A stretch of 8,976 nucleotides of DNA from a virus (IMGVR_UViG_2778261459_000009:1-8976); one strand, 5' to 3'; numbered from the stretch's first letter, positions 414-5,912 are shown. Translations and numbers: made by a program. The notes: generated by a model from the letters alone, not told the origin.

Positions 414-1770
<1,357 letters not shown>

Positions 1771-1933: not shown

Positions 1934-1964
1934 TGCTCTTAAAAATTAAGCCCTGAAGAAGGGC
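1934..1964 (+). promoter_or_regulatory. nutL: boxA-like element plus boxB hairpin
   Basis: tgctcttaa at 1934-1942 is boxA-like. GCCCTGAAGAAGGGC at 1950-1964 is the lambda nutL boxB (5-bp stem, GAAGA loop). It lies about 160 bp upstream of N. Confidence 0.8.
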
Positions 1965-2122: not shown

Positions 2123-2446
2123 ATGGATGCACAAACACGCCGCCGCGAACGTCGCGCAGAGAAACAGGCTCAATGGAAAGCAGCAAATCCCCTGTTGGTT
2201 GGGGTAAGCGCAAAACCAGTTAACCGCCCTATTCTCTCGCTGAATCGCAAACCGAAATCACGAGTAGAAAGCGCACTGAATCCGATAGACCTTACGGTGC
2301 TGGCTGAATACCACGAACAGATTGAAAGCAACCTGCAACGTATTGAGCGCAAGAATCATCGAGTTTGGTATAGCAAGCCAAGTGAGTTCGGTATAACTTG
2401 TCAAGGAAGACAAAAGGTTAAAGGGAAATCCATTCCATTGGCATGA
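2123..2446 (+). CDS. N: Antitermination protein N (107 aa), lambda-type, with arginine-rich boxB-binding motif
   Basis: MDAQTRRRERRAEKQAQWKAANPLLVGVSAKPVNRPILSLNRKPKSRVESALNPIDLTVLAEYH... closely matches lambda N as I recall it. The track ORF start at 2045 is an upstream in-frame extension. Confidence 0.92.
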   Translation: MDAQTRRRERRAEKQAQWKAANPLLVGVSAKPVNRPILSLNRKPKSRVESALNPIDLTVLAEYHEQIESNLQRIERKNHRVWYSKPSEFGITCQGRQKVKGKSIPLA

Positions 2447-2454
2447 GGTACGTA

Positions 2455-3324
2455 ATGAAGAAAATTGATTACAAGTCCATACCAAAACCAATAGACTCAG
2501 CATCAGAGCGAAAAAAACACAAAAAAGAGGCTGAAAAATTAGCAAATTATATCAGTTTTATTAGAAACAATGCTCACGGCGATGGCGACAGGAAGTTGCT
2601 TTCAGATGCCCGGACCCAAGCGTTCAGTATACTTCGTAAGCAGATGCAATATCGTCTTCATCCTGGCTACATAATTGAAATTCGCCCGACTGAAAGACAA
2701 TTGTTCTTATTAAACTCTGTCTTTGACTTTGTAAACGTAGTTGGAGATCTTATCGACAGGTCTGTAGATAAGGCTCCTGATACAAATAGTTTTCTTCTAA
2801 CAAATAAAGAATACTTATATGGTAAATTTGGTATAAACGGATGGCAAAAATATGTACGATTCTTACGTGCATTCGTTGATGCGTATAAAAATTCCGACAT
2901 GATTTATACATATTTGCCTGGTGGTGATAATTGTACGCTTTCGGCAGACAATAGAATATTCATACCTATACTTGGTCTTGGGCTGATTAATGCAGTAAAT
3001 GAAAGAGATGTTATAATTGTTAAGCAGTGGCGAAAGCATGAGGGATATAGATATCTGCCATGCTTTGATATATTAAAAATACAGAATAAATTCTATGTAA
3101 AAATTAAATATAAAGAAGATGTTTTCTTCCTCAGAAAAAACAAAGATCTTTTACAAGAACTTTCTGGGACAATAGATGTCATCGTAGGTTCTAGGTTTAT
3201 AAAAGAACTGAAAGAAAGCAGGTCTTTCTCTCGTGTAGAGATAAGCGAGTCAGAGTTATGGGGTATATCAAATAATCCTGTAAACCACGCTCACCAACGA
3301 AATCCAAACAAAAAGTGGTCATAA
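2455..3324 (+). CDS. AT-rich cargo gene of unknown function (289 aa) immediately downstream of N, in the position of lambda sieB/ral; candidate superinfection-exclusion or defence protein
   Basis: A 293-codon ORF begins at 2443; the likely start is the ATG at 2455, with a GAGG ribosome-binding site at 2446-2449. The base composition is visibly lower in GC than the flanking N and cIII regions, with long runs of AAA/ATA codons. I see no transmembrane segment and no motif I can name. A hairpin terminator follows directly. Confidence 0.75.
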   Translation: MKKIDYKSIPKPIDSASERKKHKKEAEKLANYISFIRNNAHGDGDRKLLSDARTQAFSILRKQMQYRLHPGYIIEIRPTERQLFLLNSVFDFVNVVGDLIDRSVDKAPDTNSFLLTNKEYLYGKFGINGWQKYVRFLRAFVDAYKNSDMIYTYLPGGDNCTLSADNRIFIPILGLGLINAVNERDVIIVKQWRKHEGYRYLPCFDILKIQNKFYVKIKYKEDVFFLRKNKDLLQELSGTIDVIVGSRFIKELKESRSFSRVEISESELWGISNNPVNHAHQRNPNKKWS

Positions 3325-3349
3325 CCCGCTCAGGCGGGTTTCATTTTCA
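3323..3349 (+). terminator. Rho-independent terminator after the AT-rich gene
   Basis: Stem aacccgc (3323-3329) and gcgggtt (3334-3340) with loop tcag, followed by the T-rich run tcattttc. Confidence 0.6.
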
Positions 3350-3466
3350 CGCAAACAACAGAATAAACACTGCACTGTGTATTCATTCCAACGAGTGAAT
3401 ACACGGAGCAATGTCGCTCGTAACTAAACAGGAGCCGACTTGTTCTGATTATTGGAAATCTTCTTT

Positions 3467-3491
3467 GCCCTCCAGTGTGAGGGCCTTTTTA
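3467..3491 (+). terminator. Second terminator-like hairpin upstream of cIII (tL-like)
   Basis: Stem gccctc (3467-3472) and gagggc (3479-3484) with loop cagtgt, followed by cttttta. Confidence 0.5.
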
Positions 3492-3556
3492 TATGCATAC
3501 CAATAACGCTTCATTCGAGGCGTTTTCGTTATGCAATCAAATATAAGGAGTTACCC

Positions 3557-3691
3557 ATGATGCACTTTCAGCTCGCGGGTAGCGGCGTCATGTCCGCTTT
3601 CTACCCGCACGAATCTGAATTATCACGCCGAGTTAAACAATTAATCAGAGCAGCAAAGAAACAACTGGAGGCGTTATGCGCAATGAAATAG
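3557..3691 (+). CDS. cIII: CIII-like protein (44 aa), a putative FtsH-inhibiting lysogeny regulator
   Basis: MMHFQLAGSGVMSAFYPHESELSRRVKQLIRAAKKQLEALCAMK shares the AGxxVxxxPxESxLxRxxxxL pattern of the lambda CIII central amphipathic helix. An AAGGAG ribosome-binding site lies 6 nt upstream of the ATG at 3557. It is in the expected position downstream of N. The track ORF start at 3452 has no ribosome-binding site. Confidence 0.75.
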   Translation: MMHFQLAGSGVMSAFYPHESELSRRVKQLIRAAKKQLEALCAMK

Positions 3692-3909: not shown

Positions 3910-4221
3910 ATGATGATTCTGACTCTGAATGATAAGCGTGAAATATCGCAAATAATCGCAAGTTTTACTGATGAAGATTACGAACGAATCAACAGTGAAG
4001 TTGATCGCCTCTGCAAACGTTGCGACCCAATAAGCGAAATGCTTCGCTCATATAAACCAGATGAACATACTAAGGATGCTATCGACTGGCTGGAAGATGA
4101 TGACTGTAACTATCAGGAAAAAGCCGCTGAATGGTTCTGGGATGCAATAACCGAAAGAGTTAAGGCTGAATATGCCTTCGCAATATTTAAACGCAGACAC
4201 ATTTTTGGAGAAGCTGCATGA
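3910..4221 (+). CDS. Acidic hypothetical protein (103 aa) with a CxxC pair, immediately upstream of recT
   Basis: An AGGAG ribosome-binding site lies 4-7 nt before the ATG at 3910/3913. The stop overlaps the recT start (ATGA at 4218-4221). The protein has about 24 Asp/Glu against about 15 Lys/Arg, and includes CKRC. Confidence 0.65.
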   Translation: MMILTLNDKREISQIIASFTDEDYERINSEVDRLCKRCDPISEMLRSYKPDEHTKDAIDWLEDDDCNYQEKAAEWFWDAITERVKAEYAFAIFKRRHIFGEAA

Positions 4222-5120
4222 GCAATATCGTTGAATTCGTTAAACAGCAAGAGCAGTTATTCTGCGGAGCATTGACTGAACAGACGGTGACATGGGCTAA
4301 GGAAAGCCAGTTTGCAATTCAGTATTTCCAGAAAAACGATTACCTGGCTAAAACAGCACTGGCAAATCCAACCAGCGCACAGAACGCCATCATCAATGTT
4401 GCGGCGATCGGCATCACCTTAAACCCGGCCAGCAAACTGGCTTATCTGGTTCCTCGCGACGGCATGGTGTGCCTTGATATCAGTTACATGGGATTACTTC
4501 ACCTTGCACAGTCGACAGGATCAATTAAGTGGGGGCAATGCAAACTGGTGTACTCAAACGACACCTATGAATCAAACGGCCTTGATTCAGCACCAACCCA
4601 CAAATACAACGCATTTGGTGAGCGAGGCTCTATTGTTGGTGGTTATTGTACGGTTAAAACAGCAGATGGTGACTACCTCACTGAAGAAATGAGTCTGGCA
4701 GAAATTAAAGCTGTGGAAGCAACGAGCAAGGCAAAGAATGGACCGTGGAAGACATTCTGGGAAGAGATGGCGCGTAAAACAATAGTTAAACGCGCCAGCA
4801 AATACTGGCCTAAAGCCCAGCGACTGGATAATGCCATTCACCTGCTTAACGAAGATGAAGGTATGCATCAGGAACCAGTTATGCCGCACAAATCAGAGGA
4901 AGATATCCGCGAAGATGAACGGAAACGCCAGCAGGAAATTATGGAAAAAGCACAACTTCTTTGTGATGAAATGGTTCAGGCAGAAAACATGGATGATTTG
5001 AAGCGATATTTTGCAGAAGCATATCGCCTGACATCTGGAATGAAATTGCAGCAGAACGTACAAGCCATTTACATAGAATGCAAAGCGAAACTGGAGGTTG
5101 CCAGTGAGCAAACTGTATGA
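4218..5120 (+). CDS. recT: RecT/Red-beta family single-strand annealing protein (300 aa)
   Basis: NGPWKTFWEEMARKTIVKRASKYWP closely parallels the NGPWVTHWEEMAKKTAIRRLFKYLP segment of E. coli Rac RecT as I recall it. The overall length and layout fit the RecT family. Confidence 0.85.
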   Translation: MSNIVEFVKQQEQLFCGALTEQTVTWAKESQFAIQYFQKNDYLAKTALANPTSAQNAIINVAAIGITLNPASKLAYLVPRDGMVCLDISYMGLLHLAQSTGSIKWGQCKLVYSNDTYESNGLDSAPTHKYNAFGERGSIVGGYCTVKTADGDYLTEEMSLAEIKAVEATSKAKNGPWKTFWEEMARKTIVKRASKYWPKAQRLDNAIHLLNEDEGMHQEPVMPHKSEEDIREDERKRQQEIMEKAQLLCDEMVQAENMDDLKRYFAEAYRLTSGMKLQQNVQAIYIECKAKLEVASEQTV

Positions 5121-5586
5121 AATTGCCAATGAATACGCAAAATTGATGGATTCAGATTTAGAACCAGAGATGATTGCTGACACAATAGAAGGCATGGAAG
5201 GAGAATTTACCGATAAAATAGAGCAACTTCTTTCCGTCATTAAAAATGAATCTGGTTATGCTGAACGCCTCAAGGAAGAGGCAAAGTCACTGAATGAGCG
5301 AGCCGCAGTAATTCAAAATAAGATTGACAGCATCAAATCATATATAGCGTCATCGCTTGAAATGGTTGGCAAGAAAAATATTCGAGCAGGTATTCACCAG
5401 GTAACAATCCGCAAACCGTCAGAAACTGTAGAAATCATCGACTCAAGCGCCCTTCCTCCTGAATACGTTGAGTTTGAAACGACAATTAAAGCCGACAAAC
5501 TGGCAATCAAACACCAACTAAAAGCAGGAATAAATATCCCCGGCGCTCAACTCAAAGTTGGGAAACCTTCACTTCTTATCAAATAA
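5104..5586 (+). CDS. Gam-like / Siphovirus Gp157-family protein (about 160 aa), a putative host-nuclease inhibitor partner of RecT
   Basis: Likely GTG start at 5104 with a GGAGG ribosome-binding site at 5093-5097; the track gives a TTG at 5098. It has a coiled-coil-like N-terminus and a C-terminal part that resembles Mu-Gam/Gp157-type proteins found next to annealing proteins. The family assignment is from memory and is tentative. Confidence 0.55.
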   Translation: MSKLYEIANEYAKLMDSDLEPEMIADTIEGMEGEFTDKIEQLLSVIKNESGYAERLKEEAKSLNERAAVIQNKIDSIKSYIASSLEMVGKKNIRAGIHQVTIRKPSETVEIIDSSALPPEYVEFETTIKADKLAIKHQLKAGINIPGAQLKVGKPSLLIK

Positions 5587-5597
5587 CGGTATCGCCT

Positions 5598-5912
5598 ATG
5601 AAAAAGACTCCATGGGAGAAATGGGAAGTCGATTTCTTGCGCGAAGTAGCGGCGACAATGCCAGTTGAAGTTATCGCTGAAAAACTGGAAAGGACTGAAA
5701 AAGCAGTAATGGCGAAAGCAACAAGGATTGGAGCTGACATTGTTAGCCGACTTCGTGGAAGACGCTGGACAAGAGCCGAAGTATCACTTTTCGGTAAGTT
5801 CTCCGCAGAAGAAATAGCAATTGCAACCTGCCGCTCAATTTATTCAGTAAGAGCTATGCGATACAAGCTAAAAAAACTCGATGAAGAAAGAGCAGGCATA
5901 CGAATAAATTAA
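5598..5912 (+). CDS. Hypothetical protein (104 aa) with two tandem roughly 35-aa helix-turn-helix-like repeats
   Basis: The internal repeat is [37 protein letters not shown] against [37 protein letters not shown], with a shared W..EV..L......EEIA..L.R(T/S)..AV.A pattern. Confidence 0.6.

What the first reader, a model, noticed from the sequence alone, without database searches (positions are those of the whole stretch)
2455..3324. AT-rich 289-aa cargo gene in the sieB/ral slot after N, a candidate undescribed exclusion or defence protein
The gene is wedged between N and cIII, where lambda carries sieB and ral and where lambdoid phages typically carry lysogen-expressed exclusion or anti-defence genes. 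Its composition is strikingly AT-rich against roughly balanced neighbours, which suggests recent horizontal acquisition. It has its own ribosome-binding site and a hairpin terminator directly after it. I cannot place the protein in any family from the sequence: it has no transmembrane segment, so it is not SieB-like, and no nuclease or NTPase motif I can identify by eye.
Basis: partly seen in the sequence, partly recalled or inferred. Interest (0 to 1): 0.8.

Follow-up and report, generated by a model that had tools for sequence, protein, structure and literature searches.

The report
Phage protein with Nun arrest tail
This early gene of a phage-434-like prophage joins a domain predicted to fold like the front (nucleic-acid-recognising) half of TnpB/Cas12 to the exact peptide that phage HK022's Nun protein uses to jam RNA polymerase, so it is probably a differently targeted transcription-arrest or phage-exclusion factor, and its function has never been tested.

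Summary
There is a 289-aa ORF at 2455-3324 with an RBS and a following hairpin. It is 35% GC against 45% for the rest, has no TM segment, and sits in the variable N-cIII slot.

The last 14 residues (VNHAHQRNPNKKWS) are identical to the C-terminus of HK022 Nun, the peptide that enters the RNA polymerase cleft and blocks translocation. This tail is invariant in homologs down to 38-42% identity, and its codon changes are mostly synonymous.

The gene is the same as phage 434's CPT_434_48, labelled "Nun C-terminal peptide-containing protein", with no function tested. λ imm434 lacks it.

The gene always lies directly after N. In put-type phages it lies exactly where HK022 keeps nun.

A distant chromosomal branch (Burkholderia and others) shares the core but ends in GGLPSLGKRR.

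Best reading: a Nun-type arrest factor with a new, non-ARM targeting module. AT-richness is a family trait and does not show recent acquisition. It is a new variant of a known kind.

The parts
1934..1964 (+). nutL of the host prophage: boxA-like (T)GCTCTTA and lambda-type boxB GCCCTGAAGAAGGGC (1950-1964). This is context.
   Evidence: Read directly from the sequence. The phage 434 record annotates nutL at the equivalent place. A boxB(lambda)-directed Nun would therefore attack this phage itself.
2123..2446 (+). Lambda-type antiterminator N, the gene immediately upstream and in the same pL transcription unit.
   Evidence: Translation. PF11438 N36, E 1.8e-26. The homologs in L003, L006 and L031 are also preceded by lambda-type N.
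2445..2449 (+). Shine-Dalgarno GAGGT. It overlaps the N stop codon (TGA, 2444-2446) and lies 5 nt before the ATG at 2455.
   Evidence: Sequence. N and the gene are also tightly spaced in the relatives: a 1-nt gap in L003 and L031, 8 nt in L006.
2455..3324 (+). The gene. It encodes 289 aa (33.8 kDa, pI 9.6) and is the same gene as phage 434 CPT_434_48 (97% aa identity).
   Evidence: phrog_12139 matches over the full length, E 5e-204.
2455..2664 (+). aa 1-70: an N-terminal extension specific to the lambdoid branch. It is predicted as two long helices (16-38 and 43-65), the first one basic.
   Evidence: AF2 model, pLDDT 75-95. The region is absent from the distant branch.
2668..3120 (+). aa 72-222: the core shared by the whole superfamily. 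It is predicted to fold like the TnpB/Cas12 WED-REC lobe: beta1, then four helices, then a beta-barrel with one flanking helix. No RuvC follows.
3121..3279 (+). aa 223-275: a low-confidence, probably flexible linker. It contains the superfamily-conserved segment KELKESRSFSRVEIS (about aa 250-265).
   Evidence: pLDDT below 50. The segment is conserved in alignment A3.
3280..3321 (+). aa 276-289, VNHAHQRNPNKKWS: the Nun-type RNA-polymerase arrest peptide at the extreme C-terminus.
   Evidence: 14/14 identical to HK022 Nun 96-109. Matches PDB 6alg_N and phrog_5632. V, N, H, A, H, R, K, K and W are invariant down to 38-42% identity. Codon changes are mostly synonymous. Residue roles are taken from PMC5386594.
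3323..3347 (+). Terminator-like hairpin (CCCGC-TCAG-GCGGG) plus UUUCAUUUU directly after the stop codon. Its sequence is identical to the one after HK022 nun.
   Evidence: A hairpin of the same type follows the homologs in L003, L004 and L006.
3467..3494 (+). A second terminator-like hairpin plus U-run. It corresponds to the terminator annotated in the phage 434 record.

Best explanation
The gene encodes a Nun-type transcription-elongation arrest factor with a different targeting module. The proposal has four parts; what is shown and what is inferred are marked.

1. Architecture (shown by sequence and prediction). A folded N-terminal body (aa 1-222) has a core built like the WED+REC lobe of TnpB/Cas12. 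In TnpB that lobe grips the TAM DNA duplex and the guide-target heteroduplex. A flexible linker of about 55 aa follows, and the protein ends in the Nun C-terminal peptide.

2. Tail action (inferred from HK022 Nun). The tail threads into the active-site cleft of an E. coli elongation complex. There N277, H278 and H280 would contact the RNA, template DNA and beta' rudder. R282 would pair with the C-terminal carboxylate. K286, K287 and W288 would sit in the pocket beside the hybrid. This locks RNAP to its nucleic acids and stops translocation.

3. Targeting (inferred from the fold). The body takes the place of Nun's boxB-binding ARM. It raises the local concentration of the tail on transcription complexes that carry its ligand, which is most likely a DNA or RNA feature and is still unknown. 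The host phage uses lambda-type N/boxB, or put RNA in some relatives, so the target is not lambda boxB.

4. Role (inferred). The most likely biological role is interference with the transcription of competing phages, that is, exclusion, as for nun. The gene is transcribed with N from pL before the first terminator. It may also be reached by read-through from pRM-cI-hex in the lysogen.
For: Tail:
- It is 14/14 identical to Nun 96-109 (PDB 6alg_N; phrog_5632 E 4e-5).
- It sits at the extreme C-terminus, as in Nun.
- V276, N277, H278, A279, H280, R282, K286, K287 and W288 are invariant across homologs of 68, 49, 42 and 38% identity.
- Tail codons show 8 synonymous and 0 non-synonymous differences (L003 vs L004) and 8 and 3 (window vs L004).
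- According to Kang et al. 2017 (PMC5386594), Nun 87-109 holds all known arrest determinants, removing the last 13 aa abolishes RNAP binding, and the tail acts on any TEC at high concentration while the ARM only localises it.

Body:
- AF2 with a 38-sequence MSA gives pLDDT 80-95 for aa 1-222 and below 50 for aa 223-289.
- Foldseek against PDB and against BFVD rank the same family first.
- The topology matches the published TnpB WED/REC description.
- hhalign picks the positionally correct beta1/helix-1 motif.

Position:
- The gene follows N directly in the window, in phage 434, and in L003, L006 and L031.
- In L004 and L032 it sits at pL-putL-[gene], exactly where HK022 has nun.
- PA28 carries an intact nun after a non-lambda N.
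- The hairpin and the ~70 nt beyond it are identical to those after HK022 nun.
Against: - No experiment exists for this protein; function is inferred from a 14-residue peptide and a predicted fold.
- Nun H93 and R94, which contact upstream DNA (R94A weakens binding), are not conserved; the window has N273 and N274 there.
- The TnpB link rests on an AF2 model. Sequence-level support is not significant (hhalign probability 1.6%; no Pfam hit). Foldseek E-values are weak (0.06 and 2e-3).
- The ligand of the body is unknown.
- Expression in the lysogen is unproven. Tight coupling to N suggests an immediate-early lytic role, which fits host- or self-directed control as well as exclusion.
- The distant branch shares the body but has a different tail, so the body has a function that does not depend on the Nun peptide.
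Confidence: 0.5

Rival explanations
1. Same biochemistry but a different purpose. The protein is an immediate-early regulator made together with N. It arrests host RNAP, or the phage's own unmodified transcription complexes, giving host shut-off or timing of early transcription. N- or put-modified complexes would be spared. It would not be a lysogen-expressed exclusion factor.
For: The gene lies in the pL unit and is translationally close to N (SD overlaps the N stop; a 1-nt gap in L003 and L031). No + strand terminator-like site lies between pL and the gene's end. Every carrier has an antitermination device, N or putL, upstream. Nun arrests any TEC at high concentration, with Kd about 300 nM.
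Against: nun occupies the same pL-proximal position and is nevertheless an exclusion factor expressed from the repressed prophage (title of King et al. 2000, cited). A large conserved targeting body argues for specificity rather than global arrest. Global arrest would be costly for a temperate phage.
Confidence: 0.25
2. The Nun peptide is a passenger kept by recombination at a mosaic junction (tail plus terminator module). The protein works only through its TnpB-like body, for example as a DNA-binding repressor, anti-defence protein or Sie-like factor, without touching RNAP.
For: The window's DNA from the tail codons through about 75 nt past the stop is nearly identical to HK022, as expected for a recombination joint. 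The distant branch functions with another tail.
Against: The tail is retained in homologs whose DNA is saturated with synonymous changes and whose preceding linker is not conserved. That pattern indicates protein-level selection and is not expected from hitch-hiking alone. The tail always ends the protein, as the R102-carboxylate ring of Nun requires.
Confidence: 0.15
3. The gene is a decaying remnant of a TnpB/IS element or a spurious ORF with no function.
For: It has a TnpB-like fold without the nuclease half. It is AT-rich. Truncated versions exist in databases (P0002, P0009, P0010).
Against: Intact 288-290-aa ORFs persist from 97% down to 38% identity, with many invariant residues. Synteny is fixed. 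The gene is present in phage 434 and in 93 complete E. coli genomes at 95-100% identity. No IS hallmarks flank it.
Confidence: 0.03

Closest known systems
HK022 Nun transcription termination/arrest factor (P18683; PDB 6ALG; phrog_5632)
   Same: The C-terminal 14 residues are identical and include every residue shown to matter (N97, H98, H100, R102, K106, K107, W108, and S109 as the C-terminus). The tail is at the extreme C-terminus after a flexible linker. The gene is pL-proximal and is followed by the same hairpin and downstream DNA. In put-type phages the two genes occupy the identical site.
   Different: This protein is 289 aa against 110 aa. It has no arginine-rich motif and no similarity to the Nun body, and H93/R94 are not conserved. 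It is carried by phages that themselves use lambda-type N/boxB, so it cannot share Nun's target. Its body belongs to a superfamily that also exists outside phages.
TnpB / Cas12 RNA-guided nucleases (IS200/IS605 OrfB), specifically their REC lobe (WED+REC)
   Different: There is no RuvC domain, no TNB/zinc finger and no catalytic triad. There is no detectable profile similarity, no evidence of a guide RNA and no association with a transposon.
Nuclease-dead TnpB/Cas12 derivatives that control transcription (TldR, Cas12m, dCas12f-sigmaE; PMC12259091, PMC10442227)
   Same: The idea is the same: a TnpB-derived nucleic-acid-recognition scaffold repurposed to act on transcription.
   Different: Those proteins keep a full-length protein with an inactivated RuvC and an RNA guide, and they act as roadblocks or recruit sigma. 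Here only the REC lobe remains, fused to an RNAP-inserting peptide. This resemblance comes from the abstracts listed and from memory; it was not tested.
Phage 434 CPT_434_48 (UMO75312.1), 'Nun C-terminal peptide-containing protein'
   Same: It is the same gene: 98.2% nt and 97% aa identity, in the same position after N.
   Different: In 434 the gene is followed by ea10 before cIII; in the window cIII follows directly. The label records only BLASTP similarity to Nun. The genome announcement does not mention the gene.
Lambda SieB / Ral (occupants of the same slot in lambda)
   Same: Same N-cIII accessory slot.
   Different: No sequence, fold or TM similarity.

Membership tests
HK022 Nun family | C-terminal RNAP-arrest peptide carrying N97, H98, H100, R102, K106, K107 and W108 | tested here: met
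   14/14 identity. These residues are invariant in the family. Residue roles are from PMC5386594.
HK022 Nun family | The peptide lies at the extreme C-terminus (free carboxylate pairs with R102) | tested here: met
   The stop codon follows S289 directly. The homologs end in ...KKWS or ...KKW.
HK022 Nun family | N-terminal arginine-rich motif that binds lambda boxB RNA | tested here: not met
   There is no alignment to the Nun ARM and no PF11438 hit. The basic helix at aa 16-37 is not conserved as an ARM in the homologs.
HK022 Nun family | Upstream-DNA contacts H93/R94 | tested here: not met
   The window has N273/N274, and these positions vary among the homologs.
HK022 Nun family | pL-proximal gene position, before the first early-left terminator | tested here: met
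HK022 Nun family | Arrests RNAP translocation and excludes a heterologous phage | not testable with these tools
   Needs biochemistry and plating assays.
TnpB/Cas12 (IS200/IS605 OrfB) | REC lobe: WED OB-barrel with a four-helix REC domain inserted between beta1 and beta2 | tested here: met
TnpB/Cas12 (IS200/IS605 OrfB) | RuvC nuclease domain with a D-E-D triad, plus a TNB zinc finger | tested here: not met
   After aa 222 only about 65 low-confidence residues remain. No acidic or Cys4 motifs are conserved there.
TnpB/Cas12 (IS200/IS605 OrfB) | Detectable sequence-profile membership | tested here: not met
   Pfam finds nothing for all 25 members. hhalign probability is 1.6%. No TnpB is found in PDB sequence searches.
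TnpB/Cas12 (IS200/IS605 OrfB) | Cognate guide (omega/cr) RNA encoded next to the gene | tested here: inconclusive
   Rfam finds nothing in the window or in L003, L004 and L006. Only terminator-type hairpins lie downstream. No dedicated search was possible.
Lambda SieB | Inner-membrane protein with TM segments | tested here: not met
   Maximum KD19 is 1.38. No family hit.
Known anti-phage defence systems (PADLOC-DB 2.0) | Match to any model | tested here: not met
   0 families at E up to 10.

The most novel reading that the evidence does not exclude
The protein would be a new class of sequence-programmed RNA-polymerase jammer. A TnpB-derived REC lobe, stripped of its nuclease, would read a short DNA motif in the way TnpB reads a TAM, or an RNA or R-loop feature, possibly with a small RNA. 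It would then deliver the Nun peptide into elongation complexes passing that site.

The whole superfamily, including the chromosomal GGLPSLGKRR branch, would consist of REC-lobe adaptors carrying interchangeable peptides that plug into a target machine.

HK022 Nun itself would have arisen from this locus. A deletion would have fused the ARM-bearing 5' part of a lambda-type N gene to the 3' tail of this gene. That would explain three things: Nun reads lambda boxB, Nun 25-74 aligns with N 4-54, and nun shares its tail, terminator and downstream DNA with this gene.
Probability: 0.2. Interest if true: 0.9.

Novelty: new variant of a known kind. Interest (0 to 1): 0.75.

Why it matters
Nun is the textbook case of a prophage killing a rival by jamming RNA polymerase, and until now it has looked like a one-off tied to lambda boxB.

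This gene shows that the arrest peptide is a portable module. It is attached here to a quite different and much larger recognition domain. It is conserved across diverged lambdoid phages of E. coli and Morganella, and it can replace nun at the same genomic site.

If the prediction holds, it gives three things:
1. A second, differently targeted Nun-type factor in the classical phage 434. It went unstudied because lambda imm434 lacks it.
2. The first example, to my knowledge, of a TnpB/Cas12 REC lobe used without its nuclease.
3. A testable route for the origin of Nun.

It also suggests a design principle: a recognition domain plus a 14-aa RNAP-arrest peptide, usable for programmable transcription blocks.

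Tried and rejected
- Pfam, NCBIfam and PADLOC on the protein gave nothing. Pfam on 25 superfamily members gave only scattered noise. Pfam on 10 distant members gave nothing.
- Rfam on the window and three homolog loci gave nothing.
- The first AF2 run on a 5-sequence MSA was too poor to use (pLDDT 52). It was replaced by a run on a 38-sequence MSA.
- The afdb50 fold library was unavailable.
- PDB profile and sequence searches found only the Nun tail.
- I considered whether the basic helix at aa 16-37 is an N-like ARM matched to the cognate N. I rejected this. The aromatic and Arg pattern is not conserved among the homologs. All cognate N proteins are lambda-type anyway. BLASTP shows no ARM alignment.
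- I considered whether the tail is a recent recombination scar. I rejected this because of its conservation in diverged homologs and the excess of synonymous changes.
- I considered whether AT-richness marks recent transfer. I rejected this because the bias is a family-wide trait.
- Promoter-like sites inside or near the gene do not exceed the shuffled expectation (5 found against 4.7 expected), so no claim of an own promoter is made.
- The L004 leader RNA fold was not significant by energy (z -0.29). Its identification as putL rests on about 95% identity to HK022 and on its position.
P0075 was not on record.
- King et al. 2000, on the nun promoters, is not held.
- No paper mentions the GGLPSLGKRR motif, and none links TnpB with Nun.

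Full report
**The observation**

The window is the early-left region of a lambdoid prophage with phage-434 immunity, read rightwards on the + strand. The gene order is:
- cII and cro on the minus strand
- cI(434) at 737-1369
- hex at 1366-1770
- oL/pL
- a lambda-type nutL, with boxB GCCCTGAAGAAGGGC at 1950-1964
- lambda-type N at 2123-2446
- the gene in question at 2455-3324
- cIII at 3557-3691
- recombination genes further on

The ORF is real and encodes 289 aa from the ATG at 2455. GAGGT lies 5 nt upstream and overlaps the N stop codon. The gene is 35.1% GC (GC3 30%), against 45.3% for the rest of the window. No non-overlapping 870-nt window falls below 41.5%. A hairpin with a U-run follows the stop codon directly. 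There is no TM segment.

PHROGs gave a full-length hit to an unannotated family (phrog_12139). It also gave a short hit of residues 270-289 to the C-terminus of 'Nun-like transcription termination factor'.

I translated nun from the HK022 genome. It ends ...VVNHAHQRNPNKKWS. The window protein ends ...PVNHAHQRNPNKKWS. The last 14 residues are identical (BLASTP E 4e-8; PDB 6alg_N).

The cryo-EM study of Nun on an E. coli elongation complex (PMC5386594) reports the following:
- Only residues 87-109 are ordered, and they carry all known arrest determinants.
- N97, H98 and H100 contact RNA, template DNA and the beta' rudder.
- R102 pairs with the C-terminal carboxylate.
- K106, K107 and W108 fill a pocket next to the hybrid.
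- A Nun lacking its last 13 residues neither binds RNAP nor arrests it.
- At high concentration the tail arrests any complex, and the N-terminal ARM only localises Nun to lambda boxB transcripts.

Every one of these residues is present here, at the extreme C-terminus.

**The tail is under selection**

The family is tiny. There are five 90% clusters among 5.8 billion proteins and a few more among 1.84 billion representatives. It nevertheless includes members at 68, 49, 42 and 38% identity; the 38% member is from Morganella morganii.

In all of them V276, N277, H278, A279, H280, R282, K286, K287 and W288 are invariant, while the linker just upstream is not conserved.

At the codon level the tails differ mainly by synonymous changes: 8 synonymous and 0 non-synonymous between L003 and L004, 8 and 3 between the window and L004, and 4 and 0 between the window and HK022 nun. 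This is protein-level purifying selection.

**Known occurrence**

The gene is 98% identical to phage 434 gene CPT_434_48, which the depositors named 'Nun C-terminal peptide-containing protein'. The genome announcement says nothing more about it. No paper in the searchable library discusses it.

It is present in 93 of 5,426 complete E. coli genomes, always on the chromosome and always annotated as hypothetical. The classical hybrid lambda imm434 lacks it and has lambda's sieB, ral and ea10 instead. That plausibly explains why it was never studied.

**The body**

A profile search found about 20 remote relatives that match only residues ~73-226. A second search enlarged this distant branch to 35 clusters. 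They come from Burkholderia pseudomallei, B. glumae, Paraburkholderia, Janthinobacterium and metagenomes. None has a name or a Pfam domain. They occur as solitary chromosomal genes among housekeeping genes.

The alignment defines a superfamily with these elements:
- core motifs L-P---Q---L--LF-GP, FLL-NK, CSIS--N--Y-PI--LGL and RY---F-L-K
- a variable basic linker
- a conserved S-x-(S/Y)-SRV(D/E) segment
- a short C-terminal peptide

The distant branch ends in (P/A)V-x-GGLPSLGKRR. The lambdoid branch ends, in the same register, in (P/A)V-NHAH-R---KKW(S). The lambdoid branch also has about 70 extra N-terminal residues.

With the 38-sequence alignment, AlphaFold gave a confident model for residues 1-222 (pLDDT 80-95, pTM 0.72) and low confidence for 223-289.

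Fold searches gave the following:
- Foldseek against PDB was weak but ranked the same family first (Cas12k, CasLambda, Cas12p, LaTranC; E about 0.06).
- Foldseek against BFVD ranked giant-virus TnpB/Fanzor 'transposases' first (probability 0.77-0.92).

The predicted element order is beta 72-77, then four helices 80-145, then strands 152-217 with one flanking helix 183-196. This matches the published TnpB REC lobe: WED beta1, a four-helix REC domain inserted before beta2, and a seven-stranded OB-like barrel with one flanking helix (PMC10097598).

In TnpB that lobe binds the TAM duplex in the WED-REC cleft and part of the heteroduplex. Nothing corresponding to RuvC or TNB follows in this protein.

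Sequence-level support is weak. That is the correct register, but it is not significant on its own.

I therefore treat 'TnpB-like REC-lobe fold' as a well-supported prediction. I do not treat it as family membership.

**Genomic position**

In every diverged relative the gene keeps one place.
- In L003, L006 and L031 it follows a lambda-type N within 1-8 nt.
- In L004 and L032 there is no N. The leader between cI and the gene is homologous to HK022's cI-nun intergenic region. It includes the operator/pL region and a ~75-nt block about 95% identical to the sequence just downstream of HK022 pL, where putL lies. In those phages the gene sits exactly where HK022 has nun.
- Stx phage PA28 carries an intact 110-aa nun directly after a non-lambda-type N.
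- In the window, the DNA from the tail codons through the hairpin and ~70 nt beyond matches HK022 downstream of nun apart from four synonymous changes in the tail codons, up to the point where IS903 is inserted in HK022.

The gene and nun are thus positional alternatives within the same module: pL, an antitermination device, a Nun-tail gene, then a terminator.

Phages that use lambda-type boxB carry the long form, which has no ARM. This makes sense, because a lambda-boxB-directed Nun would attack its own nutL.

**Composition and slot**

The post-N slot is indeed variable among E. coli prophages with the same flanks. It holds Ral, SieB, DUF7446 or hypothetical proteins.

Low GC is a property of the whole family. 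Gene versus flanks is 0.40 vs 0.51, 0.38 vs 0.51, 0.33 vs 0.47, 0.565 vs 0.675 in B. pseudomallei, and 0.39 vs 0.50. For nun it is 0.38 vs 0.46. Low GC therefore does not date the acquisition.

**Mechanism**

Shown:
- the architecture (folded body, flexible linker, Nun peptide at the C-terminus)
- selection on the peptide
- the fixed pL-proximal position before the first terminator-like sites (3323-3347 and 3467-3494)

Inferred from Nun: the tail inserts into the elongation complex and blocks translocation.

Inferred from the fold: the body provides targeting by binding a nucleic-acid feature in place of ARM-boxB.

Unknown: the ligand, the target phage or host genes, and whether the repressed prophage expresses the gene. 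On the last point, no + strand terminator-like site lies between hex and the gene, so read-through from pRM is possible. nun is known to be expressed constitutively from the prophage, according to the title of King et al. 2000; that paper is not held.

I put 0.5 on a Nun-type, differently targeted arrest factor used mainly against competitors. I put 0.25 on the same biochemistry used for host or self control early in infection. I put 0.15 on the tail being a passenger, and about 0.03 on a non-functional remnant.

**Origin of Nun (speculative)**

Nun 23-101 aligns collinearly with lambda-type N 1-79 (26% identity, E 2e-4). Profile against profile, Nun 25-74 aligns with N 4-54 (30% identity, E 4.6e-4, probability 33%). 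Nun's tail and the DNA downstream of it match this gene.

The order N-gene-terminator means that a single deletion could fuse a lambda-boxB-reading ARM to the arrest peptide. The tail's in-register position within a wider superfamily suggests that the peptide evolved in this family first. The opposite direction, in which this gene captured Nun's tail by recombination, is not excluded.

**Verdict**

It is a new variant of a known kind: a Nun-type factor with an unprecedented TnpB-like recognition body. The function is untested and the experiments to test it are clear.

Noticed in passing
L010 (phage PA28, NC_041935) 2255-2587: RefSeq annotates only a 45-aa 'Nun-like' stub. An intact 110-aa nun ORF, 93% identical to HK022 Nun, is present. 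It overlaps the 3' end of a non-lambda-type N gene.
   Followed up: yes
window 3371-3410: A perfect 14-bp hairpin (dG -22.8 kcal/mol, z -6.6) with no U-run lies between the two terminator-like hairpins. HK022's IS903 is inserted inside this element. The surrounding block (~3353-3494) occurs in about 2,277 of 5,426 E. coli genomes, whatever the slot cargo. Its function is unknown.
   Followed up: partly
window 3323-3347 and 3467-3494: Two terminator-like hairpins follow the gene. The first is weakened by one stem mismatch in phage 434. The second is the one annotated as a terminator in the 434 record.
   Followed up: partly
L033 (lambda imm434, OM418626) 34087-35360 in the record: The classical lambda imm434 hybrid has sieB, ral and ea10 after N and lacks the 289-aa gene, so imm434 genetics never sampled it.
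   Followed up: yes
window 1366-1770: This is hex, the 434 heterologous-exclusion and repressor-protection gene, co-transcribed with cI from pRM (PMC3564112). It is a second accessory or exclusion function in the same window. L031 has an unrelated 111-aa membrane ORF in that position.
   Followed up: partly
L002 (HK022) 2255-2584 vs window 2123-2443: Nun's body is collinear with lambda-type N beyond the ARM (BLASTP 26% over 80 aa, E 2e-4; hhalign E 4.6e-4, probability 33%). This hints that Nun is an N-derived body joined to this family's tail.
   Followed up: partly
P0011-P0031, P0057-P0085; L007/L008 (B. pseudomallei) 4801-5667, L009 8001-8738: A distant chromosomal branch of the superfamily ends in a strongly conserved peptide (P/A)V-x-GGLPSLGKRR, in register with the Nun tail. 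These are solitary genes among housekeeping genes and are also 10 GC points below their flanks. No literature hit was found for the motif.
   Followed up: partly
P0009 (96 aa): A natural variant consists of an unrelated 23-aa N-terminus fused to the last 73 residues of the family, including the tail. It is a truncation or fusion that keeps the arrest peptide.
   Followed up: no
L004 2802-3110, L032 2166-2473: These are HK022-type pL-putL leaders, with a 23-nt insertion between pL and the put-like block, in phages that carry the 290-aa homolog instead of nun.
   Followed up: partly
window 4218-5120 and downstream: The recombination module is RecT-type (300 aa), unlike the bet/exo module of phage 434. 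The window is therefore a 434-immunity mosaic and is not phage 434 itself.
   Followed up: no
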